Shown: positions 3,670 to 54,987, counted from the stretch's first letter. The stretch: DNA of 64,000 nucleotides from Minisyncoccia bacterium (GCA_049997795.1 JBEKVT010000002.1:1664-65663), one strand, 5' to 3'. A program made the numbers and translations. Notes: generated from the sequence alone by a model not told the origin.

Positions 3670-4923
3670 CTATTTCTTCCAGTAAGCCCTCTCCGCTCTT
3701 TTCATGTATGACGGCAGGTCTGAGAGAGGAACGATGTCTTGCGAATAGGTGTCGGTGCGCCGGACGATGGCCGTCTTGTCCATGGCCTCTTTTTTGCCCA
3801 TGACGATGACGTAAGGAGTGTGGTACTTCTCGACGGTCGAAACCTGGGCGCCGAGCCGGTCTTTGGAAAGCGACAGATAGAGCGGGATCTTGGCCTGGTG
3901 CAGGCTCTCCACCACCCGAAGGGAGATGAGCTTGGATTCCGTGCCGAGCTGGACGAACGAGGCGATCGGGCGCTTTATCTTCCTCATGTTGTCGCGCAAT
4001 CTCGCGGCCCGGCCCTTGATGAGTAGCGACAGGCCGATCCCCTGGATGTCTTTTTTCATCTCGAGCCGTTTGGCCAGGCCGTTGTAGCGCACGCCGACGC
4101 CGAGGATGTGCTGGCGATCCTTGGCCCGGCCCTTGTCGGCGTCTATCAGGGTGAAGATGGTCTCCGTGCAGTACGAACGGTTGCCTATGAGGCCGTTATT
4201 CAGGACGTAGGGCACCGCCAAGGCTTCCAGGTATTCTAGGACCTCTTCGAGATGCCGCCGGCTGCCTTCGGAGAGGAAATCTATAGAATGCGGGGCGCCG
4301 GCGTTCAGTTCCTTGCACGATCCGTCGTGCGACGATAAGAGCTCGAAGGGATCGCGCTTCAGGATCTGGCGGCACTCCGGCGTCATACCGTTTATATTCT
4401 TCCGGTAGTAGTCGACGAGTTCTCTCGTGAAGCGGGCCAGGGAATCGCGGTCGCCGATCGAGCTTATCTCGACGGCGATGTCTTTGTAACCTTCCTCGGC
4501 GAGCATGGCCCGTCCGGCTTGGATCAGGGTGGCCTCGGCGATCGGCCCGGAATTGCCGAGGATCTCCAAATCGGCGTAGCGGTGGCAGCCGCTCTTCTTC
4601 CCGGCCGCCGGGGCTCCGGCGGCGCGGCGGCAGCGGTCTTTCAGGTAGATCTGGACCGGCTGCGGCCGGTCGCTCCAACCGTCTTCAAGATACGTGCGGA
4701 TCAAGGCGATCTTCTCTTCGACCCGGAGCGGCAGCCTGGCGTGGCGCTCGGTCTCGTCGTCCACGAAATCCGCCCCGGTTATGCTGCGCGCGGCGTCCAA
4801 ATCGGCCTTGGTTATGGCCGGGCTCTTCACCGGGGTGAAGCCGTAATAGACGGCCGTTTCGCCTATCCTGTCGAGATGCTCGACCGGCATGAATTTCGTG
4901 ATCTTATTTGGCGCTTGTCTCAT
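3670..4923 (-). CDS. hisS: Histidine--tRNA ligase (class II aaRS with C-terminal anticodon-binding domain)
   Basis: 417 aa; GVGVRYNGLAKRL...GIGLSL matches HisRS motif 3 region (GGRYDGL...GFAMGLERL); C-terminal YVIVMGKKE anticodon-binding-like; motif 2 looks divergent. Confidence 0.7.
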   Translation of the reverse strand: MRQAPNKITKFMPVEHLDRIGETAVYYGFTPVKSPAITKADLDAARSITGADFVDDETERHARLPLRVEEKIALIRTYLEDGWSDRPQPVQIYLKDRCRRAAGAPAAGKKSGCHRYADLEILGNSGPIAEATLIQAGRAMLAEEGYKDIAVEISSIGDRDSLARFTRELVDYYRKNINGMTPECRQILKRDPFELLSSHDGSCKELNAGAPHSIDFLSEGSRRHLEEVLEYLEALAVPYVLNNGLIGNRSYCTETIFTLIDADKGRAKDRQHILGVGVRYNGLAKRLEMKKDIQGIGLSLLIKGRAARLRDNMRKIKRPIASFVQLGTESKLISLRVVESLHQAKIPLYLSLSKDRLGAQVSTVEKYHTPYVIVMGKKEAMDKTAIVRRTDTYSQDIVPLSDLPSYMKRAERAYWKK

Positions 4924-5485
4924 CGATTTGTCCTGGCATGACGGCGATCTCCGTAAGCGGCATCAGGCGGATGACCGGCCGGCCGATGATGAGATCGGCG
5001 GGAAGCGGCCCCCAGACGCGGGAATCAGAACTCTGGGCGCGGTTGTCTCCCATGACGAAATATTGTGTCGAACCCAAGATGACGGCCGGAGCGGTGTCGT
5101 GCGAGGCGTGAGCGGCTTCGACGTACGGCTCGTCGAGAAAGACGGCCGTCGACGTCCCGGCCGGAGCGATGCCGACCCTGCCGTCCTTCAAGGACACTTT
5201 CTCGCCCGGCAGGCCGACGATGCGCTTGATATAGTAGACCGAGGGGTCGTCCGGATATTCGAAGACGATGACGTCGCCCCTTTTGGGCGGTTCGAAGCGG
5301 TAGGTCAGGCGGTCGACGAGCAGGAATTGGCCGGAAGAGAAGGTCGGATCCATCGAGGCGCCGTTCACCACGAACGGCTCGACGACGAAGAAACGGATGG
5401 GCAGAGCGATGACGAGGGCGATGACGATGATCCTAGCCCATTCACGGACCCCGTTCCAGAATCCGCTTCTTTTCTCGCCATCCAT
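4904..5485 (-). CDS. lepB: Signal peptidase I
   Basis: N-terminal TM, GASMDPTF (Ser box), YIKRIVGLPGE, GDNRAQSSDSR boxes; overlaps hisS start by 20 nt. Confidence 0.9.
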   Translation of the reverse strand: MDGEKRSGFWNGVREWARIIVIALVIALPIRFFVVEPFVVNGASMDPTFSSGQFLLVDRLTYRFEPPKRGDVIVFEYPDDPSVYYIKRIVGLPGEKVSLKDGRVGIAPAGTSTAVFLDEPYVEAAHASHDTAPAVILGSTQYFVMGDNRAQSSDSRVWGPLPADLIIGRPVIRLMPLTEIAVMPGQIDETSAK

Positions 5486-12413: not shown

Positions 12414-12938
12414 ATGGTCATGTTTTCGGATCCAGCCGCGAATCTGGCGAAATTAGGCCTTGCGGACGGCATGAAAGTCGTCGATCTGGGGGCCGGCTCC
12501 GGCTTCTATTCCATGGAGGCGGCCAAGATGGTCGGCGCGACCGGCCGGGTCTACGCCGTGGACGTTCAGAAAGAGCTCCTCGAGCGCCTGCGGGGGGTTG
12601 CGGCCTCGCACGGCATCCGCAACATCGAAGTCATCTGGGGCAACGCCGAGAAGATCGGCGGGCTCAGATTGAGGGATGGTCTGGCGGACCGGGTCATCGC
12701 CTCGAACATCCTCTTTCAGATAGCCAAGCCGGACGATTTCGTCTTGGAGATAAAGCGCGCTCTGAAGCCCGGCGGCAAGGTCCTCCTCATCGACTGGAGC
12801 GGGGCCAGCGCCTTGAGCCCCAAGACCATCGTGCCGGCTCAAAAGGCCCAGACGCTTTTCGAGAAGAACGGCTTCGGGCTCGAACAGTCTTTCGGAGCGG
12901 GAGACCACCATTACGGGCTCGTATTTGTCAGGAATTGA
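12414..12938 (+). CDS. Class I SAM-dependent methyltransferase
   Basis: VVDLGAGSGFYS motif I; ALKPGGKVLLID motif; possible alternative start at 12420 six to nine nt after TGgTAAAAT. Confidence 0.8.
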   Translation: MVMFSDPAANLAKLGLADGMKVVDLGAGSGFYSMEAAKMVGATGRVYAVDVQKELLERLRGVAASHGIRNIEVIWGNAEKIGGLRLRDGLADRVIASNILFQIAKPDDFVLEIKRALKPGGKVLLIDWSGASALSPKTIVPAQKAQTLFEKNGFGLEQSFGAGDHHYGLVFVRN

Positions 12939-12941: not shown

Positions 12942-14243
12942 ATGAAAACCTCGAAATTCCAACTCATCATATTCATAGTCTTCATCCTCTTCATCGCGGC
13001 CGGGGTGGCGGCCTTCGCCACCTACAAAGGTTCCAGCTCCGGTAGCCAGCTGCCGACGATCACCGTCTGGGGCACGTTCCCGAAGGACGTCTTCGACCAG
13101 TATGTCATCCAAGTGGGCAACTCTCTATCCTCGCCGATCTCGGTCAAATACGTCCAGGAATCGCCGGACGCCTTCCTGCAGGATTTCATCTCGGCCCTGG
13201 CGCGGGGGGCCGGCCCGGATGCCGTCCTCATACCGGCCGACATGATCCTGCCGGCCGAAGACAAGCTCGTGCCCATCCCGTACTCGGCCCTGCCGCAGGC
13301 TTCGTTCAAGAGCGCCTACATCGACGAGAGCTTCGTCTATCTCGGTTCAAACGGCGTCATGGCCGTGCCGTTCGCCGTCGACCCGATAGTCATGTACTGG
13401 GATCGCGACATGTTCGACGCCGCCGGCATCGCCTCGCCGCCCAAGTACTGGGACGATTTCGCGAACGCCATCAAGAAGATCACCGTTAAGAACGAGAATG
13501 GCACGGTGACGAGGAGCGCCGTGGCCATGGGTGATTTCACCAACGTGGTGAACGCCCGTGAGCTCCTCGGCTCGCTCTTCCTCCAGCTCGGCAATCCCAT
13601 CACGGTCCAGGCGTCGGACGGCAGCGTCTCGAGCGCCCTTAAGACCTCCGCCAAGGCCGATCCGACCCCGGCTCTGCAATTCTTCGCCGGCTTCGTCGAT
13701 CCGACGAGCGATTATTACTCGTGGAATCGGAGCTGGCCGGATTCCAAGACGGCTTTCCTGGCCGGCAGTCTGGCCACTTATTTCGGCTTCGCTTCTGAGC
13801 TCGCGGACATCCGGTCCAAGAATCCCAATCTGAATTTCGACGTGACAGCCCTGCCCGAGGCCCGTTCAGGCGGCACGACGGCGGTCTACGGCAAGCTCTA
13901 CGGCTTCTCCTTGGTCAAGGCCTCGCCCAACAATAATGCCGCATACGAGATCATCTCGACCTTGACGATGCCGCAATATCTGGTCAAGGTCTCCGACGCC
14001 ATGTATCTGCCGTCGGTCTCTCGCGACGTGATCGCCAGCGGCTCGACCGATCAATACATCACCATTTTCAACCAAGCGGCGCTCATCTCGAGGACCTGGC
14101 TCGACGCCGACCCGGCGAAGTCCGGCCAGATCTTCGGCTCCATGGTCCAAGCCGTCGTCTCCGGCCAGAGATCGGCCAGTCAGGCGGTCTCGGACGCGGG
14201 GAACCAGTATGACGCCGTGCTGCGGCAAGCCACCGGACAATAA
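12942..14243 (+). CDS. Membrane-anchored extracellular solute-binding protein (SBP family 1-like), orphan (no permease nearby)
   Basis: 433 aa, N-terminal TM, ITVWGTFP, PKYWDDF, maltose-binding-like fold patterns. Confidence 0.6.
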   Translation: MKTSKFQLIIFIVFILFIAAGVAAFATYKGSSSGSQLPTITVWGTFPKDVFDQYVIQVGNSLSSPISVKYVQESPDAFLQDFISALARGAGPDAVLIPADMILPAEDKLVPIPYSALPQASFKSAYIDESFVYLGSNGVMAVPFAVDPIVMYWDRDMFDAAGIASPPKYWDDFANAIKKITVKNENGTVTRSAVAMGDFTNVVNARELLGSLFLQLGNPITVQASDGSVSSALKTSAKADPTPALQFFAGFVDPTSDYYSWNRSWPDSKTAFLAGSLATYFGFASELADIRSKNPNLNFDVTALPEARSGGTTAVYGKLYGFSLVKASPNNNAAYEIISTLTMPQYLVKVSDAMYLPSVSRDVIASGSTDQYITIFNQAALISRTWLDADPAKSGQIFGSMVQAVVSGQRSASQAVSDAGNQYDAVLRQATGQ

Positions 14244-14254
14244 CGCCTAAAATC

Positions 14255-14692
14255 ATGAAACACGCTCTCTTCATCGCATCGCTTCTCGTCCTTCTCGGTC
14301 CGTTCGCCGCGCCGACCGTCCTGGCCCAGGTGCCGGAAGCCAACATAAACAACGCCAGCTTCCGTCTCGTCATCTGCGATGGACCGGCTCTGCCGGCGAA
14401 CGTCCCGCCGCCGACAACTGACTACGTCCCTTGTGACTTCCAGCATCTCATGATAGAGGCCCAATACCTGATCAACGTCATGATAATCCTCGGCACACTC
14501 GGAGCCTTGATAGGCTTCGCTTACGCCGGCTATCTCTACATAACCGGCACCCAGCCGAATCTGGCCAAGGCCAAGGGCATATTTCCAAAGGTCTTCTGGG
14601 GGTTTATACTGATGCTGACCGCCTGGTTCATCGTCTATCAGATCCTCTCTTGGCTGACCGGGAACGCCGCGACGTATCTCGGCGGCTCGTAA
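14255..14692 (+). CDS. Pilin-like paralog P1: signal peptide + two C-terminal TM helices (VirB2/TrbC-like architecture); 2 Cys in exposed region
   Basis: SP MKHALFIASLLVLLGPFAAPTVLAQV; C-terminal FWGFILMLTAWFIVYQILSWL. Confidence 0.6.
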   Translation: MKHALFIASLLVLLGPFAAPTVLAQVPEANINNASFRLVICDGPALPANVPPPTTDYVPCDFQHLMIEAQYLINVMIILGTLGALIGFAYAGYLYITGTQPNLAKAKGIFPKVFWGFILMLTAWFIVYQILSWLTGNAATYLGGS

Positions 14693-14696
14693 TCAC

Positions 14697-15125
14697 ATGA
14701 AGAACATCCCGATGAAGAATCTCATTTATACCTTGGCTCTGGCCGTTTTGCTCGTCGGGGCTGCTCAATCCGCGAACGCCGATATCCAATCGGGGAACCC
14801 GAGCGGCACCTTCTCCCTTCAAAACCCTCTGCAATTCACGACCGTCGGCGACCTCATCAACGGCTTCCTGCAGATATTCTCATATGTGGCCGTCCTGTTC
14901 GCCGTCCTGATGCTAGTCTGGGTCGGCCTGCAATTCGTCCTGGCCAGGGGCAACCCCGAACGCATGAAAGTGCTGAAAAACTGGCTCCTGTGGATCGTCA
15001 TCGGGGCGGCCATCGTGATCGGCGCCAGGATCATCGTCTCGGTCGTCATAAACACCCTAGGCTCGACAGGCGCGGTCAACCAGAATATCCTGAATAGCGC
15101 CAATAACGCCCTCAATAAGCCGTGA
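14697..15125 (+). CDS. Pilin-like paralog P2 (SP + two TM helices)
   Basis: SP ...LALAVLLVGAAQSANA; helix pair FSYVAVLFAVLMLVWVGLQF / WLLWIVIGAAIVIGARIIV. Confidence 0.6.
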   Translation: MKNIPMKNLIYTLALAVLLVGAAQSANADIQSGNPSGTFSLQNPLQFTTVGDLINGFLQIFSYVAVLFAVLMLVWVGLQFVLARGNPERMKVLKNWLLWIVIGAAIVIGARIIVSVVINTLGSTGAVNQNILNSANNALNKP

Positions 15126-15164
15126 GACCTCTTGGCCGATTAACAGCCGTTTAAAAACATAACC

Positions 15165-15554
15165 ATGAAGAAAAAGCTCATCGTGTTTGCCTCCGTCCTC
15201 CCGTTCATCTTGCCGACCGTGGTTCAAGCTCAAACCCCCGTCGCTCTCAATTGTGATCCGAAGACATTATGCTATGTCGTGAGCCAGGTCATCGCGTACC
15301 TGAACCTGGCCTTGAGCTTGCTGATGGCGGTGGCCATCGTCATGTTCGTGTGGTACGTGATCAAGTATTACATCAGGCCCAACGAGGAGCGCAAACAAGC
15401 CGGACTATACGTCATGTACAGCATCATCGGCTTTTTCGTCATCCTGTCCATCTGGGGCATCATCAACATCCTCGGCAGCACCTTCGGTCTGGGGAACGCC
15501 GGCAACCAGCAAAAGAGCTGGAGCAGCTTCGTCAATCTCTTCCCGCAGCAATGA
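15165..15554 (+). CDS. Pilin-like paralog P3 (SP + two TM helices, Cys pair)
   Basis: C-terminal YSIIGFFVILSIWGIINILGSTFGLGNAGNQ shared with P4. Confidence 0.65.
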   Translation: MKKKLIVFASVLPFILPTVVQAQTPVALNCDPKTLCYVVSQVIAYLNLALSLLMAVAIVMFVWYVIKYYIRPNEERKQAGLYVMYSIIGFFVILSIWGIINILGSTFGLGNAGNQQKSWSSFVNLFPQQ

Positions 15555-15589
15555 AATATTATGATCGACCATAACCGATACACACTATC

Positions 15590-15913
15590 ATGATGCAAGT
15601 CACGGACGTCAATTCACTGTTCTACAAGCTGAATGGGATCGGCAACGCCGTGACCATTCTGCTCGTCTCGCTCGCGGTCATCTGGATAGTCGTCTCCGTC
15701 GTGCGTTTCATCATGGCGAGCGGGGAGAACCGGGCCGTTCACCGGGCTTCCGTCCTTTGGGGCATCGTCGGTCTAGCCGTCATCCTGTCCATCTGGGGCA
15801 TCATCAACATCTTCGGGCGCACTTTTGGACTGGGAAATGCCCAGAATCAATGGCGATCTTCGAGGGACGCGAACAGCCTGATCATGACGCCTCCGGTATC
15901 GCCATTCCAGTAA
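15590..15913 (+). CDS. Pilin-like paralog P4, no signal peptide (possible silent or truncated copy)
   Basis: Starts directly in mature-like region VTDVNSLFYKLNGIGNAV; shares 33-nt identical block gtcatcctgtccatctggggcatcatcaacatc with P3. Confidence 0.5.
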   Translation: MMQVTDVNSLFYKLNGIGNAVTILLVSLAVIWIVVSVVRFIMASGENRAVHRASVLWGIVGLAVILSIWGIINIFGRTFGLGNAQNQWRSSRDANSLIMTPPVSPFQ

Positions 15914-16015
15914 TCCACAGCCAGCGCTTCTTTTTAGAGGCGATATCGGCTATAATCCGGATGGCTACAAGTGATTTTAACAGTCGTCATTAACCAATCA
16001 TCCATCAGCATTATC

Positions 16016-16378
16016 ATGAAAAAGCTCATAGCATCGCTCGCGGTCCTGACCCCGTCGGTCGCCTTCGCCGCCCAGCCGATCACTGACGTCAACTCGCTGA
16101 CCCAGAAGCTGACCGGCATCGGCAATACCGTGATCGGCATCCTGATCTCGCTCGCGGTCATCTGGATCATCTGGAACGTCGTCTCTTTCATCATCCACGC
16201 CGACAATCCGGAGAAGCGCGGCGAGAGCGGCAAGGCCATCCTTTGGGGCGTCGTCGGCCTGTTCGTCATCCTGTCCATCTGGGGCCTGGTCAACATCCTG
16301 ACCGGCACGTTCAGCACCAATACCCAGGCGCCGGTCCAGAACTACCCGGTCAATCCCAATCCGCCGATAGTCCAGTGA
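16016..16378 (+). CDS. Pilin-like paralog P5 (SP + two TM helices)
   Basis: MKKLIASLAVLTPSVAFAAQPITDVNSLTQKLTGIGNTV...; TATAAT at about 15945. Confidence 0.65.
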   Translation: MKKLIASLAVLTPSVAFAAQPITDVNSLTQKLTGIGNTVIGILISLAVIWIIWNVVSFIIHADNPEKRGESGKAILWGVVGLFVILSIWGLVNILTGTFSTNTQAPVQNYPVNPNPPIVQ

Positions 16379-16391
16379 CCGAATAGCCAGC

Positions 16392-16643
16392 GTGGCTTCC
16401 CCGTTCTTCAAGGCCATAAACCCGATCATCACCAACGTGGTCAATCCGCTGGTGTGGCTGGCTTTCGCCGTGGCCTTCGTCGTCTTCGCCTACGGGGTCG
16501 TCCAGATGATCACTCACGAAACGGACGCGGAGGCCCACAAGCGGGGAAGATGGAGCATCTTGAGCGGCATAATCGGCATGTTCATCATGTTCTCGGCCTG
16601 GGGCATCATCAATATCGTCGCCAACACGGTCAAGTCGCTTTGA
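16392..16643 (+). CDS. Pilin-like paralog P6, minimal two-helix unit, GTG start, no signal peptide
   Basis: 83 aa; WSILSGIIGMFIMFSAWGIINIV matches family C-terminal consensus. Confidence 0.5.
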   Translation: MASPFFKAINPIITNVVNPLVWLAFAVAFVVFAYGVVQMITHETDAEAHKRGRWSILSGIIGMFIMFSAWGIINIVANTVKSL

Positions 16644-16671: not shown

Positions 16672-16712
16672 AAAAAAGGGCCGCAGGAGAGTTCGTCTCC
16701 GCGGCCCTTGGA
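16672..16712 (-). terminator. Intrinsic terminator for minus-strand SPFH operon (hairpin GGGCCGC...GCGGCCC followed by U-run on minus strand)
   Basis: Seen in sequence: AAAAAAAGGGCCGCAGGAGAGTTCGTCTCCGCGGCCC. Confidence 0.5.
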
Positions 16713-16727: not shown

Positions 16728-17141
16728 TCAGGTGTCATCCTTCTTGAAGGTGCAAGTGACCTCGGCGTATCCGGTTTTTTCCCGGTTGAGCCGATATCCC
16801 TTTTTCCAGATCCCCTTGCCGCGATCCTGATAAGGCCGGGGCAGGATGTATTCGGTCGGAGGGAGCGATCTGTCCGTTCCCCTGTATACCCGAAGGTCGA
16901 CGGGAGCCGAACCCCAATCGTCGGTCATCGTCCAGCCGTCCTTGATCTCGACGTATACCCAAGGGTGATCCGGCATCTCCCTCACCCAGAAGGTCTTGGT
17001 ATAGGAGGTCCGGCCCCGGCTGCCGTCGTCTCCGGCCCTTGGGCCGGATCCGTGCAGCGTCGGTGGGTTGGCCAAGAAGTACAGAACGATGAGCGACCCG
17101 AAGCCTATCAATACAGTCAGCCATTTGCGCTTCTTGTTCAT
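16728..17141 (-). CDS. Membrane-anchored small protein, possible NfeD-like partner of SPFH protein
   Basis: 137 aa, one N-terminal TM then beta-rich domain; 4-nt overlap with upstream SPFH gene. Confidence 0.4.
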   Translation of the reverse strand: MNKKRKWLTVLIGFGSLIVLYFLANPPTLHGSGPRAGDDGSRGRTSYTKTFWVREMPDHPWVYVEIKDGWTMTDDWGSAPVDLRVYRGTDRSLPPTEYILPRPYQDRGKGIWKKGYRLNREKTGYAEVTCTFKKDDT

Positions 17142-18145
17142 GATTTGCCTCCTTTATTGCCCCCTTGGGCCATGTTCACGATGGTGTCGCGAAGGACGAT
17201 TCCGCTGACCGGGTGTTCGCCCTTGCTCTCGATCTGCAGACGGTTGACGTGCTCGTCCCTGACGAGGCGCGCTTCGACCGCGGCATTCCAGGCAGCCTGC
17301 TCGTCGAGGCCGAGCTCCGTCATGAAGAGCTTTGCCGTGGCGATATCGCCCTTGGATTCCGTCGCTCGCGCGTCGGTCTCGTAGACGATGCTGACGGCGT
17401 CGGTCATGCTCTGGTTTATCTTTTCGGGGATGGTGGCTTCGATCTGCACGCCCTGGCATTCGACCCCGAATGATCTTTCCTCGAGCACTCCCTTATGGTC
17501 GCCGTCGCCCTTCAGATGCTTCTCGAGCTCTCTCGAGATCAAGTCGCCGTGCTGGACCAGCTCGATGAAGTTCAGGCCGGCTTTATGGTCCGCGCCTTCC
17601 ATGGTCTTGACCAGCCTTTGGACCTCGCGGTAGGGGATGCCCCCCATGAGTTCCTTGATCTTGTCCAGATCGCGGCCGCTCTGAATGTATGAATTCAGAT
17701 GTTCCTTGTCAGGCCGGGCGGGGATATGGACTCTCACCGGCACCGCCACCGACCGTTGGTTGCCCCTGTCGTCGACCGTGTCCTCCACGGTCAGGATTAT
17801 CATGTTGAAGACCCATTCCTTGCTCGTCATGTCGATGGGCTTGACGCCGATGAAGAACGGGAAGTAATCCGCCAGGATGACCTTGCCGCGCAGGGCTATG
17901 GTCTTCCTGGTGTCTTCCTTCGGAGTCTTCCGGCCGGTCTTCACGGCTCTGCCCCAGCAGGTGAGCATGCCGAGCTCCAACGGATCGGGGGAGAGATTGG
18001 TCCAGCCCAAGGCGATGGCGACGAACCCCAGGCCGCCCACCACGATCCCCGCCCGCGAGTGCAGGACGACGATCATGAAGATGCCGGCCGAGATCAGGGA
18101 TCCGATCCACGACAATATCCCTAACATTATCAGCAGCTTTTTCAT
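17138..18145 (-). CDS. SPFH/band-7 (stomatin/flotillin-like) membrane protein
   Basis: 335 aa; two N-terminal TM helices followed by SPFH-like region; charged coiled C-terminus. Confidence 0.5.
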   Translation of the reverse strand: MKKLLIMLGILSWIGSLISAGIFMIVVLHSRAGIVVGGLGFVAIALGWTNLSPDPLELGMLTCWGRAVKTGRKTPKEDTRKTIALRGKVILADYFPFFIGVKPIDMTSKEWVFNMIILTVEDTVDDRGNQRSVAVPVRVHIPARPDKEHLNSYIQSGRDLDKIKELMGGIPYREVQRLVKTMEGADHKAGLNFIELVQHGDLISRELEKHLKGDGDHKGVLEERSFGVECQGVQIEATIPEKINQSMTDAVSIVYETDARATESKGDIATAKLFMTELGLDEQAAWNAAVEARLVRDEHVNRLQIESKGEHPVSGIVLRDTIVNMAQGGNKGGKS

Positions 18146-18352
18146 AAATCCTTTCAGTTGCGAACCGCCCCCGCAAGCAGGGAAGCTCTGGTTTCTGGTT
18201 AAATTGTCAACGTGCGTCCGAGCGGGCGCACAACAATTCCGCTGCCTGAAATGGTATCATTTTTTGACTGCAATGTCAAGCTAGCCGAGGCCTTCGCTCG
18301 GGTGTTATACTTCCGCCATTATTTGACCGGCAGAATCATCCCAAAAACGAAC

Positions 18353-19078
18353 ATGGACCAGCGCTCCGAGCAGCCGTCGAAATATTCCGTGCCGATCGCC
18401 ATCATCATCGGTTCGTTCGTCATAGCCGGCGCCATCATGCTCTCAGGAGGGAAATACTCGACCGCGCCGACGGCCGCACCGAACAACGCTGTCCAACAAA
18501 GAGTCCAGCCGCCGGTGGATTCTTCCAAGGTCAACGCCCAGGGCGAGCCGTTCATAGGAGAGAAGAGCGCCCCGGTCATCATAGCCTACTGGTACGATTA
18601 TCAGTGCCCGTTCTGCAAGCAGAATGAAGAGACATCCATGACCGAGCTCCTCAAGGATTACGTGGATACGGGCAAGGCCAGGATCATCTTCAAGGATTTC
18701 CAGTTCCTCGGTCCGGACTCACAGACTCTGGGCAAGGTCTCGCGCGCCGTCTGGGAAGCGGCCCCGGATAAGTTCTATGCCTGGCACAAGGCCATCTTCG
18801 ATAACCAAGGACAGGAGGGAAGCGGCTGGGCTACCCAAGCGAAGATCCAGTCGATCACAGTCTCGGTCCTGGGACAGGCCGACGCGGCCAAGGCTCTGGC
18901 CTTGGCGGATCAGAACGCTGCGACGTATCAGAAAGAGATGGATGCCGACAAGACCGAGGCCGCGAGCTTCGGCGTGAACGGCACGCCGGCCATGGTGATA
19001 GGGAAGCTCCTGGTCACGGGAGCGGCGCCGTATGCGGAGATAAAGTCCGACATCGAGACGACGCTCGCGGGGAAATAA
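18353..19078 (+). CDS. DsbA-family thiol:disulfide oxidoreductase, membrane-anchored
   Basis: CPFC active site (WYDYQCPFCKQ), thioredoxin fold, FGVNGTPA near C-terminus; start moved to internal Met after TM-less leader. Confidence 0.7.
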   Translation: MDQRSEQPSKYSVPIAIIIGSFVIAGAIMLSGGKYSTAPTAAPNNAVQQRVQPPVDSSKVNAQGEPFIGEKSAPVIIAYWYDYQCPFCKQNEETSMTELLKDYVDTGKARIIFKDFQFLGPDSQTLGKVSRAVWEAAPDKFYAWHKAIFDNQGQEGSGWATQAKIQSITVSVLGQADAAKALALADQNAATYQKEMDADKTEAASFGVNGTPAMVIGKLLVTGAAPYAEIKSDIETTLAGK

Positions 19079-21508: not shown

Positions 21509-21597
21509 GTTCGCCAGACGCGCTGATTTTTGATCAATCCGATCGACCAGTGTTCCAGTCGATCGCGTCGACGAGGAATCAATCACTGCACATTAGC

Positions 21598-22509
21598 ATG
21601 GCCAATCGACATCTCTCCCGTTCCGTCGTCCTGCAGTCCCTTTTTGAATGGGATTTCTGCGGTCAGAAGCCGAAGGCCGTCCCGGCCATCGTCGAGAGGA
21701 ACGTCAAGGAATTCGCTCCCGGCCTCTCCGACATCTCTTTCGTCGGGGACCTCTTGAAAGGCGTCATCGGCAAGAGAAAGGAGATCGACGCCATCATCGA
21801 GAAGGCCGCTCCAGAATGGCCTCTAGACAAGATCTCTCCGGTGGACCGGAACGTCCTTCGATTAGGCCTCTACGAGCTCCTGTTCGCCGACCGCTCCGAA
21901 GTGCCGGCCAAGGTGGCCATCAACGAAGCCATCGAGCTCGGCAAGACTTTCGGCGGCGAGGCTTCCGGTCGTTTCGTGAACGGCGTCCTCGGGGCCGTCT
22001 ACAAGGAGCTCGGCGAGCCGGGCAAGGACGCCACGCCGGCCAAAGACAAGAAGAAAAGGCCGGCCGAAGTGCCGTACGAGAAGATGCCGGTCCAGCATTT
22101 GGGCGGAGCGGTGGTCTACGCAAGGAGCGGCAAGGACATATATCTGGCCTTCGTCCACGACATCTTCGGACACTGGACCCTGTCGAAGGGCAAGATCGCC
22201 GAAGGCATAGATCCGGCCGAGGGCACGATAAGCAAGGTCAAGGAGGAGATTGGCCTTTCCGTCACGATCAAGGCCGACCTCGGCACGAACGAGTACATCG
22301 CCAACGACCCGGAGATCGGCAAGCTCAGGAAACAAGTGCATTATTATCTGGCCGAAGCGCCCTTCGGAGATCTCGCCCTGGCCAAGAAGCCGGGCCTCGA
22401 CGACGCCAAGTGGTTCAAGCTCGCCGATATCCTCGAACTGAATTTCTACAACGACATCCTGCCGATCGTCACCAAGGCCATAACTATCCTGTCCCAGAAG
22501 GAAAAATGA
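21598..22509 (+). CDS. nusB: Transcription antitermination factor NusB fused to a C-terminal Nudix-like domain
   Basis: N-terminal 145 aa canonical NusB (LFEWDF...VDRNVLRLGLYELLF); C-terminal ~150 aa with degenerate Nudix box G-x...SKVKEEIGL. Confidence 0.7.
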   Translation: MANRHLSRSVVLQSLFEWDFCGQKPKAVPAIVERNVKEFAPGLSDISFVGDLLKGVIGKRKEIDAIIEKAAPEWPLDKISPVDRNVLRLGLYELLFADRSEVPAKVAINEAIELGKTFGGEASGRFVNGVLGAVYKELGEPGKDATPAKDKKKRPAEVPYEKMPVQHLGGAVVYARSGKDIYLAFVHDIFGHWTLSKGKIAEGIDPAEGTISKVKEEIGLSVTIKADLGTNEYIANDPEIGKLRKQVHYYLAEAPFGDLALAKKPGLDDAKWFKLADILELNFYNDILPIVTKAITILSQKEK

Positions 22510-48689: not shown

Positions 48690-49010
48690 ATGCATCAAAA
48701 ACATATGTCAAGCATGACTAAAACGGCTATCGCCCTTATCGTCCTGATCGTGGTCATCCTTGTCGGCTGGCTCTGGTACGTTAATTCTTCCGGCGGCATG
48801 CCGACAGCGGGACAATCTGCGCCGATCACGCCGATCCCTCCGACGCCGAACGGCCAAGGGGCGACTCCCATCGGCGGCGTGACCGCTCCTTCCGACTCGT
48901 CGGACGCGGCCATAGACCAAGACATGACGTCAATCGGCGGCCAGGTGAACGGCCTTAACGCCGATTCGGCCAATGCCGGTCAGAACTCAGCGGTTCCGCA
49001 GCTGCAGTGA
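48690..49010 (+). CDS. Hypothetical membrane-anchored Pro/Gly-rich small protein
   Basis: TM AIALIVLIVVILVGWLWYV then low-complexity tail. Confidence 0.4.
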   Translation: MHQKHMSSMTKTAIALIVLIVVILVGWLWYVNSSGGMPTAGQSAPITPIPPTPNGQGATPIGGVTAPSDSSDAAIDQDMTSIGGQVNGLNADSANAGQNSAVPQLQ

Positions 49011-49044
49011 GGCGGCCAGTCTATCTATCAGAACTTAATCGCAC

Positions 49045-49890
49045 ATGCATCACATCATGAAATCACGCATCATATACACAGCCGCCTCTCTGGCATTATG
49101 CGCTTCGTTTGCGGCGGTTCTGCCGGCCTTCGCCCAAACGGGCGAGAATGCGGCGACGGCCGGTCCGACGAACCCTCCTGGCGCGCCGGCGATAACGGCT
49201 AGGAGCGCCGCCTTGGCAGGACGGATAGACAGCCTAGAGAACCGCGCCGAACAGGCTGTCACTGATCGCATCGACAGCCTGAACATGATGGTAGGCCGGA
49301 TCACAGGCATGAAGAACCTCTCCGACAGTCAGAAGACGGCGCTCTCGACGACCATCCAAGCCGAGATCGCGGACATGAACGCCCTCAAGACGAAGCTCCA
49401 AGCCGACGCTTCCACCACCAGCCTGAGGACCGATATCAAATCGATCACTTCGGACTATCGCATATATATGGTGGTCGAACCGCAGATCTCCATCTTGGCG
49501 GCGGCCGACAGGACAAGCACGATCGTTGGCTTGCTCACCACGCTTTCCGGCAAACTCGAGACGCGGTTGTCCCAGGCTGCCAACGCGTCTAACCTTGCCT
49601 CTCTCCAGGCAGACCTCGCCGACATGAGCGCCAAGCTGACCGACGCTGCGGCGCAAGCCACGGCCGCCGCAAGCGAAGTGGCAGGCCTGCAGCCTGATAA
49701 AGGCGATCAGACGGTCATGCAGTCGAACAACGCCGCCCTTAAAGACGCCCGCTCGAAGATCCAGGCTGCCAATAAGGACATCCAAGCCGCCTACAAGGAC
49801 GCCCAAGCGATCGTCGCCGGCATGAGAGGCAATAAGCCGCCGGCAGCCTCGGTAGTGCCTACGACGACGCCTCCTACGACTAACCAATAA
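49045..49890 (+). CDS. Secreted coiled-coil protein, hypothetical
   Basis: Signal peptide ...LALCASFAAVLPAFAQ; Ala/Gln-rich heptad-like repeats. Confidence 0.45.
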   Translation: MHHIMKSRIIYTAASLALCASFAAVLPAFAQTGENAATAGPTNPPGAPAITARSAALAGRIDSLENRAEQAVTDRIDSLNMMVGRITGMKNLSDSQKTALSTTIQAEIADMNALKTKLQADASTTSLRTDIKSITSDYRIYMVVEPQISILAAADRTSTIVGLLTTLSGKLETRLSQAANASNLASLQADLADMSAKLTDAAAQATAAASEVAGLQPDKGDQTVMQSNNAALKDARSKIQAANKDIQAAYKDAQAIVAGMRGNKPPAASVVPTTTPPTTNQ

Positions 49891-49919
49891 GCCCTATCAC
49901 CGTTCCCATGAAGACCGCC

Positions 49920-50624
49920 CTATTTCTGGGGCGGTTTTCTCTTCATGAAGATCTGTTTGAAGAAATGCAGGATGTATCTGCTTTCAAGCCTAATGATGCC
50001 TTCCTTTTTGAACCGGCGGGCCGATGTCTTCATGACCAGACCGGAATCGAAGACGACTTTGCCGTGGCGGGCCAGGCGCTTGGCGGTATCCGTGTCGTCG
50101 CCGTAGAAGGTCAGGGCGGTATCGAAGCCGCCTTCGGCCGCGAGAGCCGAGGCACGCATGAAGCTATTGCCGCCGATCATGACCGCGCCGCTGCCGAGCG
50201 CTTGGGCAAGCCGATTGAACCGATGATACAACGAGCTTTGAAAGACTAGGGCGAACCATCGGAAGGCCGCGTGGCTATCATGGTAGTCATACGGGCCGCT
50301 CGCGCCGGAAACGTCCGGGTCGCTGAAATGCGCCAGACCGCGAGAGAGCCAGCTTCTGTCCGGCAGACAATCGGCGTCCATCCTGACGATGATCTGGCCC
50401 GACGCCTCGAGGCGGCCGCGCTCGCAGGCCCACATCGTACCCCTGCGCTCCTCGCGCACGATCTTCACCGGGAATCCGCCGGCGACCGCGGCGGTCCGGT
50501 CGGTGCTCCCGTTGTCGACGATGATGACTTCGAAGTCCGGGTGGTCCTGGTCCAGGACCGCCCGCAGGGCCTCGGCCAAGAGGGCCTCTTCATTGCGAGC
50601 CGGTATTATGATCGACGCTCTCAT
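49920..50624 (-). CDS. Glycosyltransferase family 2
   Basis: IIIPARNEE...DNGSTD...DAD GT-A fold motifs. Confidence 0.75.
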   Translation of the reverse strand: MRASIIIPARNEEALLAEALRAVLDQDHPDFEVIIVDNGSTDRTAAVAGGFPVKIVREERRGTMWACERGRLEASGQIIVRMDADCLPDRSWLSRGLAHFSDPDVSGASGPYDYHDSHAAFRWFALVFQSSLYHRFNRLAQALGSGAVMIGGNSFMRASALAAEGGFDTALTFYGDDTDTAKRLARHGKVVFDSGLVMKTSARRFKKEGIIRLESRYILHFFKQIFMKRKPPQK

Positions 50625-50630
50625 CGCGGA

Positions 50631-51353
50631 TCACCTTATGGGTTCCCACTCCTTGACGAAAGCTCTGCCTTTCACGACCATGAAGACCGAATTCAGGAAC
50701 CAGAGCGATAAGAGGCGGAGCCAGCCGATCTTATGGGCTCGGCGGCCGGTATGATATATCACAAGGCCTTTCTCGTAGCGGACGTGGCCGGCCTTGGCGA
50801 GCCTGGAGAACAACTCAATGTCTTCGCTCGCCGCCAGCCGCCCGTTATAGCCCCCGAGCCGGTCGAAGGCGTCCTTGCGGATCATCTGGAATTCTCCGGC
50901 GGACATGCCGAAATGGAGGATATCGTTCACGAACCAGAGGTAATCATTGAACAGGTTGAAGATGACCCAATCGGTCAGCGTCTCGAACTCCGGCAGGACC
51001 CGGATGGCGACGTTCACGGCCACGAGCTTCGGGTCTCTCCCGAAATGCTTCATGATCTTGTTGAAGAAAGAATCCGGCTCTTTGATGGTGCAATCAGCGT
51101 CCATAAATACCAGGAATTCTCCCCGGGCGGCTTTGGCGCCGTCGTTCCGGCCTTCGGCGATGGTCTGGCGCTTCTTCCCGGAGTAGACGATGACTTTGTC
51201 TGCGTATCTTCCGGCGATCTCCGCCGTGCGATCCGAGCTCCGGCCGTCGGAGATGATGATCTCGTAAGGGATCGAGAGCTTTGATTTCAAAGACGTCAGC
51301 GTCTTCTCGATGACGCTCTCCTCATTCAAGGTTGGGATGATGATCGAAAGCAT
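50631..51353 (-). CDS. Glycosyltransferase family 2 (polyprenol-phosphate sugar transferase-like)
   Basis: IIIPTLNEE...SDGRSSDRT...FMDADC motifs. Confidence 0.75.
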   Translation of the reverse strand: MLSIIIPTLNEESVIEKTLTSLKSKLSIPYEIIISDGRSSDRTAEIAGRYADKVIVYSGKKRQTIAEGRNDGAKAARGEFLVFMDADCTIKEPDSFFNKIMKHFGRDPKLVAVNVAIRVLPEFETLTDWVIFNLFNDYLWFVNDILHFGMSAGEFQMIRKDAFDRLGGYNGRLAASEDIELFSRLAKAGHVRYEKGLVIYHTGRRAHKIGWLRLLSLWFLNSVFMVVKGRAFVKEWEPIR

Positions 51354-51363
51354 GGCAGTCGCG

Positions 51364-51987
51364 TCATATCTCTATCTCCTCGGCCCGCTTGCGCAGGTAT
51401 TGGACATATCGGAAAAGGGCGAAACATACGAGGACGATGCCGACTATCAAGGAGATCCGGCCGGCCCAGTTGTTGACCTGGATGTAGGCGCTCGAGAAGA
51501 AATAGCCGACGGCGAGCAGAATGCCAGTCCAGACGAATTGCCCGAGCAGGTTGACAGAGAGGTATTCGCCGAAGGGGATGCGGACCACGCCGGCAGTCAT
51601 CAAGGTGACGAGCGAGAAGCCGAAGCCGTTCGAGATCTTGGAGATGAACAGTACGGCGTGCTTGTATTTGTGGAACAATCTGGTCATCTTCCCGACCTTC
51701 TCTTCGGTGACGCCGAAATATTTGCCCCAGCGCGCGATGAAGCCGTGGCCGTAGACCCGGCCGATCCGATACCAGATGCCGTCTCCGATCAAGTCGCCGA
51801 GCATGAGACAGGCATAAATCGGGATGAAGTGCAGATAGCCGAGGCGGAGCAGGACGCCGAAGACGACGGAAAGGATCGGGCCCTCGGCGCAGGCCAGGAT
51901 GATGATCAGAAAATATATGAGCAGATTGTGGTCGAGGGCGAAGCCGATAGTCCACTGCAGCATAAGCCATATTCTACACGCTTTCAT
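51364..51987 (-). CDS. DedA/SNARE-associated (VTT domain) membrane protein
   Basis: Multi-TM with G-x-x-x-G rich DedA core; start may be internal Met at 51963. Confidence 0.65.
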   Translation of the reverse strand: MKACRIWLMLQWTIGFALDHNLLIYFLIIILACAEGPILSVVFGVLLRLGYLHFIPIYACLMLGDLIGDGIWYRIGRVYGHGFIARWGKYFGVTEEKVGKMTRLFHKYKHAVLFISKISNGFGFSLVTLMTAGVVRIPFGEYLSVNLLGQFVWTGILLAVGYFFSSAYIQVNNWAGRISLIVGIVLVCFALFRYVQYLRKRAEEIEI

Positions 51988-52001
51988 GTTATATTGAAAT
52001 C

Positions 52002-53048: not shown

Positions 53049-53104
53049 AAAGCGGCCCCGCGAGCGGGCCGCCGAAAGTAAAGAACAGTGGACGAAGAGT
53101 CCGA

Positions 53105-53476
53105 TCAGACGCACGCGGCGCTTGCCGCAGATCGCAAGCAGCCGAGACGATGATTCCTGTCCAGGCCGAGCTTGAGGCATTCCGCGACCTTGCGCTTCAC
53201 GGTATGGAACGTGTCGCGAATGTAGAGGAGGAGGGTCAAGACGCCATTGTCTCGCAGCAGTCTTTTGAACTCGCTCTTCTTCGGCCGCGACGGCAGGACC
53301 ACGATGCGCAACCTGAATCCCAAGCTCCTTCTGCCGGTGCCTTGGACGACCGTCCGGAAATCAGCGAGCTGCTCGGGGGTACGCTTCACTCGACAGAAGC
53401 GCACTACGGGGTATCTGAGGCCGTATGCCGGCTTCTCGGTCAAGGCAAGGAGAGCTAATTCGACTTTCGTCATCAT
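53105..53476 (-). CDS. Hypothetical protein (124 aa)
   Basis: Balanced composition; terminator-like hairpin GCGGCCCCGCGAGCGGGCCGC at 53055-53075 with U-run on minus strand. Confidence 0.35.
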   Translation of the reverse strand: MMTKVELALLALTEKPAYGLRYPVVRFCRVKRTPEQLADFRTVVQGTGRRSLGFRLRIVVLPSRPKKSEFKRLLRDNGVLTLLLYIRDTFHTVKRKVAECLKLGLDRNHRLGCLRSAASAACV

Positions 53477-54666: not shown

Positions 54667-54672
54667 TCAAAG

Positions 54673-54975: not shown

Positions 54976-54987
54976 TAATATGGCAAT

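What the first reader, a model, noticed from the sequence alone, without database searches (positions are those of the whole stretch)
14255..16643. Tandem array of six paralogous VirB2/TrbC-like pilin-architecture genes with variable exposed regions
Six consecutive + strand genes (145, 142, 129, 107, 120 and 83 aa) share one architecture. Each has a cleavable signal peptide (P1, P2, P3, P5), a short variable segment, a hydrophobic helix, a short charged loop, and a second hydrophobic helix. The C-terminal consensus is (K/R)...ILWG(I/V)VGL.VILSIWG(I/L)(I/V)NI(L/F)G.TFGLGNA. This matches conjugative and T4SS pilins of the VirB2/TrbC type and the CPR-enriched T4SS-pilin-like families. The N-terminal mature regions are hypervariable. 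P1 and P3 carry Cys pairs there, and a membrane-anchored DsbA-like oxidoreductase (CPFC) is encoded 1.7 kb downstream. No VirB4, VirD4 or other T4SS or type IV pilus machinery is in the window. The array could encode variable surface filaments or adhesins of a secretion or attachment apparatus encoded elsewhere, or a distinct small-membrane-protein family.
Basis: partly seen in the sequence, partly recalled or inferred. Interest (0 to 1): 0.8.

Follow-up and report, generated by a model that had tools for sequence, protein, structure and literature searches.

The report
Patescibacterial six-gene VirB2-like pilin array
Six neighbouring small genes in an ultra-small (Patescibacteria/CPR) bacterium all encode conjugative-pilin-like membrane proteins, a gene array already described for this group, and here it is tightly coupled to a sugar-binding-type surface protein, which hints at what these little-understood pilins do.

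Summary
Six consecutive + strand genes (14255-16643) are homologous two-helix membrane proteins. Five score above Pfam's cut-off for PF18895 (T4SS_pilin). P2 also passes PF04956 (TrbC/VirB2). P1 is joined to the others by profile-profile comparison. The window comes from a Ca. Taylorbacteria-like Paceibacteria chromosome (CPR). Arrays of 2-11 divergent VirB2-like pilins in CPR are already published, and one six-gene array is essential in Ca. Southlakia epibionticum. The finding is therefore a new member of a known kind.

New details found here:
- The array is old. In about 40 related species the gene order P1-P2-P3-(P4)-P5-P6 is conserved.
- A methyltransferase and a MalE-like solute-binding protein (SBP) always precede the array.
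- SBP has fused in frame to the mature P1 pilin at least twice independently.
- P1-like domains elsewhere carry lectin, PKD or fn3 modules.
- P1 has an invariant Cys pair around a hypervariable loop.
- P5-P6 have their own conserved promoter-like spacer.
- The nearby DsbA is not a conserved neighbour.

No VirB4 or VirB6 lies within the window or 10 kb upstream of it. The rest of the 657-kb contig could not be read. Whether a pilus is built is inferred, not shown.

The parts
12414..12938 (+). 174-aa class I SAM-dependent methyltransferase. It is the first gene of the conserved module and ends 3 nt before the SBP gene.
   Evidence: Pfam Methyltransf_31/11/25. NCBIfam gives only generic methyltransferase hits. 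It sits directly upstream of SBP plus the array in about 45 related loci.
12942..14243 (+). 433-aa membrane-anchored solute-binding protein of the MalE/sugar-binding type. Its stop codon lies 11 nt before P1.
   Evidence: Pfam SBP_bac_1 and SBP_bac_8. The best PDB sequence matches are sugar- and maltose-binding proteins, E 4e-9. It always precedes P1. It is fused in frame to mature P1 in five protein clusters from two lineages.
14255..14692 (+). P1. It has a signal peptide, an exposed segment with an invariant Cys41...Cys60 pair around a hypervariable loop, and two TM helices (69-96, 108-135). It is the proposed module-bearing adaptor subunit.
   Evidence: PF18895 at 20.8 bits, below the cut-off. 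34 of 37 orthologs hit PF18895. hhalign to the P2-P6 groups gives E 7e-15 to 8e-10 against controls of 3e-3 or worse. Cysteines invariant.
14697..15125 (+). P2. It is the most TrbC/VirB2-like paralog, with a signal peptide, a conserved LxNPL motif and two TM helices (52-85, 90-124).
   Evidence: PF18895 at 45.2 bits and PF04956 TrbC at 33.6 bits against a cut-off of 27.9. 39 of 39 orthologs hit PF18895 and 31 of 39 hit TrbC.
15165..15554 (+). P3. It has a signal peptide, a non-conserved Cys pair and two TM helices (35-71, 78-110).
   Evidence: PF18895 at 36.2 bits. Ortholog conservation.
15590..15913 (+). P4. It is a leaderless P5-like paralog whose N-terminus matches the mature N-terminus of P5. 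This slot is present in only some relatives.
   Evidence: PF18895 at 26.9 bits. 46% identical to P5 and to P3. The slot is variable among relatives.
15914..16015 (+). Conserved 102-nt spacer upstream of P5. It holds a nearly invariant ATCCACA (15913-15919) about 30 nt upstream of a TATAAT box (15951-15956), followed by an AT-rich leader. It is read as a dedicated P5-P6 promoter.
   Evidence: An 80-140 nt gap is conserved at this position in relatives. Alignment A3 of 26 loci. The scan lists a promoter-like site at 15990-16017. The function is inferred.
16016..16378 (+). P5. It is the slowest-evolving paralog and the candidate major subunit, with a signal peptide and a helical hairpin.
   Evidence: PF18895 at 43.9 bits. 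NF045849 at 47.6 bits against a cut-off of 40. AF2 helices 25-60 and 65-99. Median ortholog identity is 49%, against 41-46% for the other slots.
16392..16643 (+). P6. It is an 83-aa leaderless minimal paralog with two TM helices (11-42, 54-78).
   Evidence: PF18895 at 38.4 bits. It is the conserved last slot in relatives.
16676..16709 (.). GC-rich hairpin (AAGGGCCGCAGGAGA...TCTCCGCGGCCCTT) between the convergent P6 and 137-aa genes. The T-run lies on the minus-strand side.
   Evidence: Read directly from the sequence. The consensus terminator scan did not list it.

Best explanation
The six genes are ancient, vertically inherited paralogs of the VirB2/TrbC-related T4SS_pilin family (PF18895). 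They lie in the chromosome of a Ca. Taylorbacteria-like member of the Paceibacteria (Patescibacteria/CPR). This is one instance of the published patescibacterial 'VirB2-like pilin array'.

Shown:
- The six genes are homologous to each other and belong to the family.
- Each protein has the two-helix hairpin architecture.
- The operon-like module methyltransferase-SBP-P1-P2-P3-(P4)-P5-P6 keeps its gene order across roughly 40 species.
- A separate conserved promoter-like spacer precedes P5-P6.
- P1 has an invariant Cys pair.
- SBP has fused in frame to mature P1 more than once.

Inferred mechanism:
- P1, P2, P3 and P5 are exported by Sec and cut by signal peptidase I. P4 and P6 insert without a leader.
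- Each mature protein sits in the membrane as a hairpin. Both ends face outside and a short basic loop faces the cytoplasm, as in VirB2, TraA and TrbC.
- A VirB4/VirB6-type machine encoded elsewhere in the genome draws the subunits into a heteromeric pilus or stalk.
- P5 is the bulk subunit.
- P1 is the adaptor that holds the co-encoded sugar-binding SBP at the cell surface. In other lineages the same position holds lectin, PKD or fn3 modules. The proposed role is contact with, or capture of material from, a host cell.
For: Family: Pfam and NCBIfam scores, profile-profile links with a reversed-profile control, and names given by public sources.

Organism: GyrA is 67-88% identical to Ca. Taylorbacteria and Paceibacteria MAGs. 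The context is housekeeping genes.

Known kind: 441 arrays of 2-11 pilin genes in 383 CPR assemblies with a mean identity of 25% (PMC12102498). The six-pilin array of Ca. Southlakia epibionticum is essential (PMC10633639, PMC12857230). T4SS pilins are among the most expressed unknown genes in Paceibacteria enrichments (PMC10936435).

Age and order: the array is syntenic and positional orthology holds across relatives.

Topology: hydropathy analysis and the AF2 hairpin.

SBP coupling:
- SBP always lies directly upstream of P1.
- Five fused protein clusters fall into two separate lineages. One lineage has kept the fusion down to 70% identity.
- The former signal-peptide segment of P1 has lost its hydrophobicity in the fusions, which keeps the topology consistent.
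- P1-like domains are fused to Laminin_G_3, PKD/Ig and fn3 modules in other proteins.
- The SBP resembles sugar- and maltose-binding proteins.

P5: it has a conserved own spacer with a -10 box and the highest conservation among the six slots.

Prior for a T4SS elsewhere: VirB4 occurs in 2,417 of 3,035 CPR assemblies, and in Paceibacteria it lies near dnaA.
Against: - No VirB4, VirB6 or VirD4 was found in the 64-kb window, in 10 kb upstream of it, or in 1.33 Mb of related loci around gyrA. In this lineage the array is not part of a T4SS cluster.
- The rest of the 657-kb contig could not be read, so a T4SS in this genome is only a prior.
- No filament has been observed for any patescibacterial VirB2-like protein (reviews).
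- Apart from the Pfam TrbC hit of P2, a link to canonical VirB2 is not detectable. hhalign of the P5 family against A. tumefaciens VirB2 gives 2.5% probability. There are no PDB sequence hits and no plasmid tblastn hits.
- Fold searches return only generic helical hairpins.
- The SBP keeps a long N-terminal hydrophobic segment even in the fusions. If that segment is an uncleaved anchor, it would tie P1 to the membrane.
Confidence: 0.55

Rival explanations
1. The proteins are membrane-resident anchors and do not form a filament. The six pilin-like hairpins form a heteromeric platform that stays in the cytoplasmic membrane, works independently of any T4SS, and holds extracellular binding modules (SBP, lectin, PKD, fn3) at the cell surface.
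For: - The array lies in a housekeeping neighbourhood and never next to T4SS genes in about 45 related loci.
- The fusion proteins keep the N-terminal hydrophobic segment of the SBP as well as the two P1 helices. That gives three membrane segments, which is hard to extract into a fibre.
- No CPR VirB2-type pilus has been observed.
Against: - The family is related to TrbC/VirB2.
- In Saccharibacteria it lies inside an essential T4SS cluster.
- Six conserved, distinct paralogs plus a separately promoted P5 fit a polymer with major and minor subunits.
- The AFA|T motif after the SBP hydrophobic segment could be a cleavage site.
Confidence: 0.25
2. The array is a host-range or antigenic-variation cassette. 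The six genes are interchangeable alternative major pilins, as proposed for the Bartonella Trw trwL copies. The cell uses one or a few at a time to match different hosts.
For: - This is the reading offered for CPR arrays in PMC12102498.
- Paralogs are only 21-46% identical.
- The pilins evolve much faster than GyrA, with median ortholog identity of 41-49% against 80%.
Against: - Each slot has its own ortholog in about 40 species and the order is fixed, so the copies are old and individually maintained rather than recently amplified.
- Slots differ in architecture: the P1 Cys loop, the TrbC-like P2, and the leaderless P6.
- The locus is 100% identical in contigs from seven samples, so there is no population-level switching or shuffling.
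- No repeats or invertible elements were noticed while reading the locus sequence. No repeat search was run.
Confidence: 0.12
3. The array is an SBP-dependent uptake channel. The 2-TM subunits (12 helices in total) assemble into a membrane pore that receives the ligand captured by the SBP, forming a new kind of importer.
For: - SBP adjacency is strict and SBP-P1 fusions exist.
- No ABC permease or ATPase genes lie next to the SBP.
- The organism presumably depends on imported nutrients, as is general for CPR.
- Weak DctQ-like hits for P2 and one ortholog are probably composition noise.
Against: - P1-like domains are also fused to lectin, PKD and fn3 modules. These are adhesion modules, not transport modules.
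- The gene count varies from 5 to 8 between species.
- The helices are almost purely hydrophobic and the loops are very short.
- No energising component is encoded in the module.
- The family is associated with T4SS genes in other CPR classes.
Confidence: 0.08

Closest known systems
Patescibacterial VirB2-like pilin arrays (Ca. Southlakia epibionticum ML1 T4SS locus SEML1_0006-0019; the Nanosynbacter lyticus TM7x 'secreted array'; the survey of 441 arrays in PMC12102498)
   Same: - Tandem set of small, signal-peptide-bearing, sequence-divergent T4SS_pilin/VirB2-like genes, six in ML1 and TM7x as here.
- Identity within the array is about 25%.
- The host is a CPR bacterium and the array is chromosomal.
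- No relaxase context.
   Different: - Here the array is not inside or next to a T4SS cluster. It is at least 24 kb from any VirB4 on one side and at least 47 kb on the other.
- It belongs to a conserved methyltransferase-SBP-pilin module downstream of gyrA.
- Positional orthology of each slot, the invariant Cys loop of P1, the SBP-P1 fusions and the separate P5-P6 promoter were not found in the papers read here.
Canonical conjugative pilins VirB2 (A. tumefaciens), TrbC (RP4) and TraA (F); Pfam PF04956
   Same: - Small size and a cleaved leader.
- Two hydrophobic helices joined by a short basic loop.
- P2 and 31 of 39 of its orthologs pass or hit the TrbC/VirB2 model.
   Different: - Those pilins occur in diderm hosts, usually as one copy next to virB3/virB4.
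- VirB2 and TrbC are cyclised, and TraA is N-acetylated (own knowledge).
- The P5-type profile shows no significant match to A. tumefaciens VirB2.
- Two of the six paralogs here are leaderless.
Bartonella Trw system with tandem variable trwL (VirB2) and trwJ (VirB5) copies
   Same: Several sequence-variable VirB2 paralogs in tandem. They are thought to diversify surface binding.
   Different: The Trw copies lie inside the T4SS operon, are co-amplified with VirB5, and are lineage-specific duplications. Here the paralogs are ancient, ordered and architecturally distinct.
Mycoplasma ICE 'Mbov_0395 family pilin-like conjugal transfer protein' (NCBIfam NF045849)
   Same: P5 scores 47.6 bits against a cut-off of 40. 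The other five paralogs, P1 excepted, hit below the cut-off. It is a monoderm (MPF-FATA-type) conjugation context, the class from which the CPR VirB4 derives.
   Different: It is a single gene on a mobile element next to VirB4 and VirD4 homologs. There is no array and no SBP.
Modular type IV pilins, such as Streptococcus sanguinis PilB and PilC (own knowledge, not tested here)
   Same: This is an analogy only. A pilin domain serves as the anchor for an extra extracellular binding module carried by a minor subunit.
   Different: The protein family and assembly machine (type IV pilus) are unrelated. In those pilins the module sits at the C-terminus. Here the modules sit at the N-terminal, exposed side of a VirB2-like hairpin.

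Membership tests
Pfam PF18895 T4SS_pilin (CPR-type VirB2-like pilins) | HMM score at or above the gathering cut-off of 26.6 bits | tested here: met
   P2 45.2, P3 36.2, P4 26.9, P5 43.9 and P6 38.4 bits. P1 scores 20.8, below the cut-off. However, 34 of 37 P1 orthologs hit at E<=1e-3 with a best value of 2.5e-12. The P1 group profile also aligns to the others at E 7e-15 to 8e-10, against a reversed control of 3e-3 or worse.
Pfam PF18895 T4SS_pilin (CPR-type VirB2-like pilins) | Architecture of an optional leader, two hydrophobic helices and a short charged loop | tested here: met
   Hydropathy segments are present in all six proteins. AF2 of P5 gives a helical hairpin at 25-60 and 65-99. The leaders of P1, P2, P3 and P5 were read from the sequence. 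SignalP and TMHMM were not available.
Patescibacterial VirB2 array as defined in PMC12102498 | At least two VirB2-like genes in tandem, or separated by one non-pilin gene, in a Patescibacteria genome | tested here: met
   Six adjacent genes. The taxon was assigned from GyrA relatives and from the names given by public sources.
Patescibacterial VirB2 array as defined in PMC12102498 | The genome also encodes a Patescibacteria-clade VirB4 | not testable with these tools
   VirB4 is absent from the window, from 10 kb upstream and from the related gyrA loci. The remaining roughly 580 kb of contig Ga0427927_000007 could not be fetched. The prior is 2,417 of 3,035 assemblies.
Pfam PF04956 TrbC/VirB2 pilin | HMM score at or above the gathering cut-off of 27.9 bits | tested here: inconclusive
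   Met for P2 only, at 33.6 bits and E 4.5e-8, and 31 of 39 P2 orthologs hit. P5 scores 12.7 bits and the other paralogs have no hit. hhalign of the P5-type profile against A. tumefaciens VirB2 gives a probability of 2.5%.
Pfam PF04956 TrbC/VirB2 pilin | Encoded within a mating-pair-formation or T4SS gene cluster (virB3, virB4, virB6 neighbours) | tested here: not met
   The neighbours are gyrA, a methyltransferase, the SBP, two unknown genes, a DsbA-like gene, rpmF, nusB, rnc and smc.
Pfam PF04956 TrbC/VirB2 pilin | Polymerises into an extracellular pilus | not testable with these tools
NCBIfam NF045849 Mbov_0395 family pilin-like conjugal transfer protein | HMM score at or above the cut-off of 40 bits | tested here: inconclusive
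   P5 scores 47.6 and meets the cut-off. P2 31.7, P4 29.0, P6 25.2 and P3 24.7 fall below it. P1 has no hit.

The most novel reading that the evidence does not exclude
The methyltransferase-SBP-six-pilin operon builds a modular surface organelle. A dedicated VirB2-like subunit (P1, with a disulfide-bonded variable loop) carries a sugar-binding SBP. In other lineages the same subunit type carries lectin, PKD or fn3 modules. On this reading the VirB2-type pilins of Patescibacteria are the 'missing adhesins' or ligand-capturing arms of the epibiotic lifestyle, and they can operate from a locus separate from the T4SS genes.
Probability: 0.3. Interest if true: 0.7.

Novelty: new member of a known kind. 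Interest (0 to 1): 0.4.

Why it matters
VirB2-like pilin arrays are essential for epibiotic growth in the one genetically tractable patescibacterium, and nobody knows what they do. This window adds no new kind of system.

Its comparative context does give testable leads:
- The paralogs are old and non-redundant, because slot order is conserved across species.
- One slot (P1) is physically tied to a carbohydrate-type binding protein, by recurrent gene fusion.
- Related pilin domains carry classic adhesion modules.

These points favour host binding or capture over DNA transfer. They also nominate specific proteins (SBP, P1, P5) for binding assays, localisation and structural work.

Tried and rejected
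1. Search for a secretion ATPase.
- Pfam was run on all large window ORFs.
- Precomputed Pfam was read for 53-64 kb and for 10 kb upstream.
- Pfam was run on unmatched large ORFs of 80 related loci.
- A. tumefaciens VirB1/2/3/4/6/8/11 were searched by tblastn against 1.33 Mb of held DNA.
- No T4SS component was found.
- Two look-ups failed because my start codons differed from the recorded gene calls.
- I found no way to read the rest of the 657-kb contig or to obtain a close-relative VirB4 seed.

2. Structural route to VirB2.
- PDB sequence searches returned only transmembrane-composition noise, such as GABA-B receptor hits.

3. Direct similarity to plasmid pilins. tblastn of P2 against 72,556 plasmids gave nothing. 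hhalign against A. tumefaciens VirB2 was not significant.

4. Viral or mobile origin. An IMG/VR scan with P5 gave nothing.

5. DsbA as a partner. The neighbourhood link is rejected because no relative has the gene within 10 kb. Any DsbA in the genome could still oxidise P1.

6. Strain-level variability. Rejected, because contigs from seven samples are 99.97-100% identical over the module.

7. The ATCCACA motif as a general promoter element. It is not enriched in the window, with 4 occurrences against 5.3 expected.

8. The unknown 137-aa, 335-aa and 343-aa neighbours, and the upstream 1095-aa and glucosaminidase-like genes, as T4SS parts. They have no supporting family hits.
Full report
**1. 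Observation**

The six + strand ORFs are present exactly as described:
- P1 14255-14692 (145 aa)
- P2 14697-15125 (142 aa)
- P3 15165-15554 (129 aa)
- P4 15590-15913 (107 aa)
- P5 16016-16378 (120 aa from the ATG)
- P6 16392-16643 (83 aa)

Public gene calls on identical contigs give the same six genes. Pairwise identity among the six is 21-46%, and P3, P4 and P5 are the closest to each other. Every protein has two hydrophobic helices. An AlphaFold2 model of P5 built from 124 sequences has a leader helix at 2-18 and a hairpin at 25-60 and 65-99, with pLDDT 83-92. P1, P2, P3 and P5 start with K-rich, hydrophobic, AXA-type leaders (VLA|Q, ANA|D, VQA|Q, AFA|A). I read these from the sequence, and no SignalP run was possible. 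P4 and P6 have no leader. The N-terminus of P4 aligns with the mature N-terminus of P5.

**2. Homology**

Pfam PF18895 (T4SS_pilin, cut-off 26.6 bits) scores are P2 45.2, P3 36.2, P4 26.9, P5 43.9, P6 38.4 and P1 20.8. P2 also passes PF04956 (TrbC/VirB2) at 33.6 bits against a cut-off of 27.9. NCBIfam NF045849, the Mycoplasma ICE pilin-like protein, is passed by P5 at 47.6 bits against 40.

P1 is the outlier. A profile built from the other five does not find it. Three other results tie it to the family:
- 34 of 37 P1 orthologs hit PF18895.
- Profiles of the P1 ortholog group align to the P2-P6 groups at E 7e-15 to 8e-10.
- Reversed-profile controls for P1 give E of 3e-3 or worse.

All six are therefore real paralogs. 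An HMM of the six finds no further copy in the window.

**3. Organism and context**

P2 is encoded on 23 public contigs. The longest is JGI 3300038416 Ga0427927_000007, at 657,439 bp, and the window corresponds to about 60.1-124.1 kb of it. GyrA is 67-88% identical to Ca. Taylorbacteria, Paceibacteria and Parcubacteria MAGs. NCBI labels the proteins 'Minisyncoccia bacterium'.

The whole window is housekeeping. It encodes FtsA, PTH, S1, GyrA, L32, a NusB-NUDIX fusion, RNase III, SMC, ClpB, alanine racemase, MgsA, MiaA, ParB, TopA, DprA, SerRS, Dus, HolB, glycosyltransferases, PyrD, GAPDH, transketolase and UvrB, plus six tRNAs. A signal peptidase I gene lies at 4904-5485 on the minus strand.

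**4. What is already known**

Four papers bear on this kind of array:
- Quinonero-Coronel et al. 2025 (PMC12102498) searched 3,035 Patescibacteria genomes with PF04956 and PF18895. They report 441 arrays of 2-11 VirB2-like genes in 383 assemblies, with a mean identity of 25% within arrays. VirB4 was present in 2,417 assemblies. VirB2-like pilins occurred in 1,948 VirB4-positive assemblies but lay near virB4 in only 1,135 of them.
- Wang et al. 2023 (PMC10633639) found a series of predicted pilins inside the T4SS cluster of Ca. Southlakia epibionticum to be essential. A 2025 review counts six of them (PMC12857230).
- McLean et al. 2020 (PMC7427843) described arrays of 4-6 small signal-peptide proteins next to VirB4 and VirB6 in Saccharibacteria.
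- Kuroda et al. 2024 (PMC10936435) list T4SS pilins among the most expressed unknown genes in Paceibacteria enrichments.

The finding is therefore an instance of a published kind.

**5. What the comparison adds: age and gene order**

The 80 gyrA loci fetched for taxonomy happen to contain the syntenic region. About 45 of them carry 5-8 pilin-like ORFs 2-4 kb downstream of gyrA. By best match to the window paralogs, the order P1-P2-P3-(P4)-P5-P6 is kept throughout. Only the P4 slot is variable.

Median ortholog identity across 40 loci:

| Protein | Median identity |
|---|---|
| GyrA | 80% |
| Methyltransferase | 63% |
| SBP | 51% |
| P5 | 49% |
| P6 | 46% |
| P1-P3 | 41-42% |

The paralogs are old and individually maintained. 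They evolve fast, as surface proteins usually do. Contigs from seven samples are 99.97-100% identical over the module. This does not look like a recently amplified or switching cassette.

**6. What the comparison adds: the module and the SBP**

Wherever the array is present in the fetched loci, a 174-aa methyltransferase and a 433-aa solute-binding protein immediately precede it on the same strand. In the window the gaps are 3 nt between the methyltransferase and the SBP and 11 nt between the SBP and P1. Genes downstream of the array vary between species. One relative (L020) lacks the whole module at this position.

A search with the SBP returned five 586-659-aa clusters among the best 120 hits. 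These are in-frame fusions of the SBP to the mature part of a P1-type pilin. One of them is held as DNA, at L010 3411-5501. The segment that corresponds to the P1 leader keeps its length in the fusions but has lost its hydrophobicity. Its 15-residue Kyte-Doolittle maximum is 1.0-1.3, against 2.39 in the window P1. That change is what the topology requires: SBP outside, Cys loop outside, then the hairpin.

The fusions fall into two lineages that are 58% identical to each other:
- One is a clade of three whose members have diverged to 70-76% identity.
- The other is nested among unfused SBPs that are 79-83% identical to it.

This indicates at least two fusion events and long retention of the fused state.

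A phmmer search of P1 against 1.84 billion representative proteins found 1,175 relatives. About a tenth of the best 150 are 240-590 aa long with the P1-like domain at the C-terminus. Ten of these were scanned against Pfam. One carries Laminin_G_3 (a lectin fold), one PKD/Ig domains and one fn3. One P2 ortholog also has fn3.

The SBP is closest to sugar- and maltose-binding proteins. No permease or ATPase genes lie next to it.

P1 orthologs have an invariant Cys pair. The loop between the two cysteines varies from a few residues to about 45.

I found no paper in the searchable library that links SBPs or such modules to CPR VirB2-like pilins.

**7. What the comparison adds: regulation**

The only long gap in the array is the 102 nt before P5. 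It is 80-140 nt long in nearly all relatives. It contains a nearly invariant ATCCACA about 30 nt upstream of a TATAAT or TATACT box, followed by an AT-rich leader. I read it as a dedicated promoter for P5-P6 with an upstream factor site. P5 is also the best conserved slot. P5 is therefore my candidate bulk subunit, which is an inference.

A GC-rich hairpin at 16676-16709 separates P6 from the convergent 137-aa gene.

**8. Machinery**

No VirB4, VirB6, VirD4 or VirB11-type gene is present in the window, in 10 kb upstream of it, or in the related loci. The rest of the contig could not be read. In Paceibacteria virB4 usually lies near dnaA, and dnaA is not in the window. A T4SS in this genome is therefore only a prior of about 0.8.

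**9. Limits of the pilin label**

Beyond the Pfam models, similarity to solved or canonical pilins cannot be shown:
- No PDB sequence hits.
- No plasmid tblastn hits.
- hhalign against A. tumefaciens VirB2 gives 2.5% probability.
- Fold searches return thousands of generic hairpins.

'Works like VirB2' rests on family membership, topology and the literature on Saccharibacteria.

**10. Verdict**

The array itself is a new member of a known kind.

The best explanation is a heteromeric VirB2-like surface assembly, with P5 as the bulk subunit and P1 as the carrier of the sugar-binding SBP. A T4SS encoded elsewhere is the likely assembly machine. I put this at about 0.55.

Three rivals remain:
- Membrane-resident, T4SS-independent anchors (0.25).
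- A host-range variation cassette (0.12).
- An SBP-dependent pore (0.08).

The DsbA neighbour is coincidental at the level of gene order.

Noticed in passing
window 12942-14692; P0133, P0141, P0158, P0208, P0232; L010 3411-5501: The solute-binding protein upstream of the array is fused in frame to the mature P1 pilin in five protein clusters from two separate lineages. The former signal peptide of P1 has degenerated into a non-hydrophobic linker.
   Followed up: yes
proteins P0374, P0389, P0328 and others: P1-like pilin domains sit at the C-terminus of 240-590-aa proteins whose N-terminal parts are Laminin_G_3 lectin, PKD/Ig or fn3 modules. Several further N-terminal parts have no Pfam match.
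   Followed up: partly
window 15913-16015: A conserved spacer before P5 holds a nearly invariant ATCCACA about 30 nt upstream of a TATAAT-like box. It is conserved in 26 related species. Whether it is a promoter with an activator site has not been tested.
   Followed up: partly
window 58243-58432: A second TCCACA-N29-TAAAAT site lies in front of a 27-aa ORF (MDFRVIEAVKLACLSVVIDALVGSRPL, 58294-58377), which is followed by a hairpin at about 58403-58432. Two such sites occur against 0.07 expected.
   Followed up: no
window 16728-18145 (- strand): Two overlapping genes of 137 and 335 aa, both with N-terminal hydrophobic segments, have no Pfam or NCBIfam match. Homologs of the 335-aa protein follow the array in about 8 relatives and in L090.
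   Followed up: partly
window 18212-19078: The membrane-anchored DsbA-like thioredoxin-fold protein (CPFC) is real. It is not found within 10 kb of the array in any related locus.
   Followed up: yes
L056 15240-15971: One relative has a 243-aa ORF with two complete pilin domains in tandem (39-131 and 140-229). This is a fusion of two array slots.
   Followed up: no
L009, L038, L039, L045, L046, L075 (just after gyrA, - strand); L071 9620-9892; L073 2855-3127: Some relatives carry an extra P5- or P6-like pilin gene on the opposite strand between gyrA and the methyltransferase. Others carry a lone copy upstream of gyrA, where the array itself is absent.
   Followed up: no
window 21550-22509: NusB is fused to a NUDIX hydrolase domain in one 303-319-aa protein.
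   Followed up: no
about 4-8 kb upstream of the window (L087 15821-20224): A 1095-aa protein with no family match sits directly next to a 368-aa glucosaminidase-like protein. A VirB1-like role was considered, and no supporting hit was found.
   Followed up: partly
window 4697-25125 and 48756-62826 against L001-L006, L087, L088: Contigs from at least seven metagenome samples (JGI, ENA, SRA) are 99.97-100% identical to the window. This points to a clonal, widely sampled population.
   Followed up: partly
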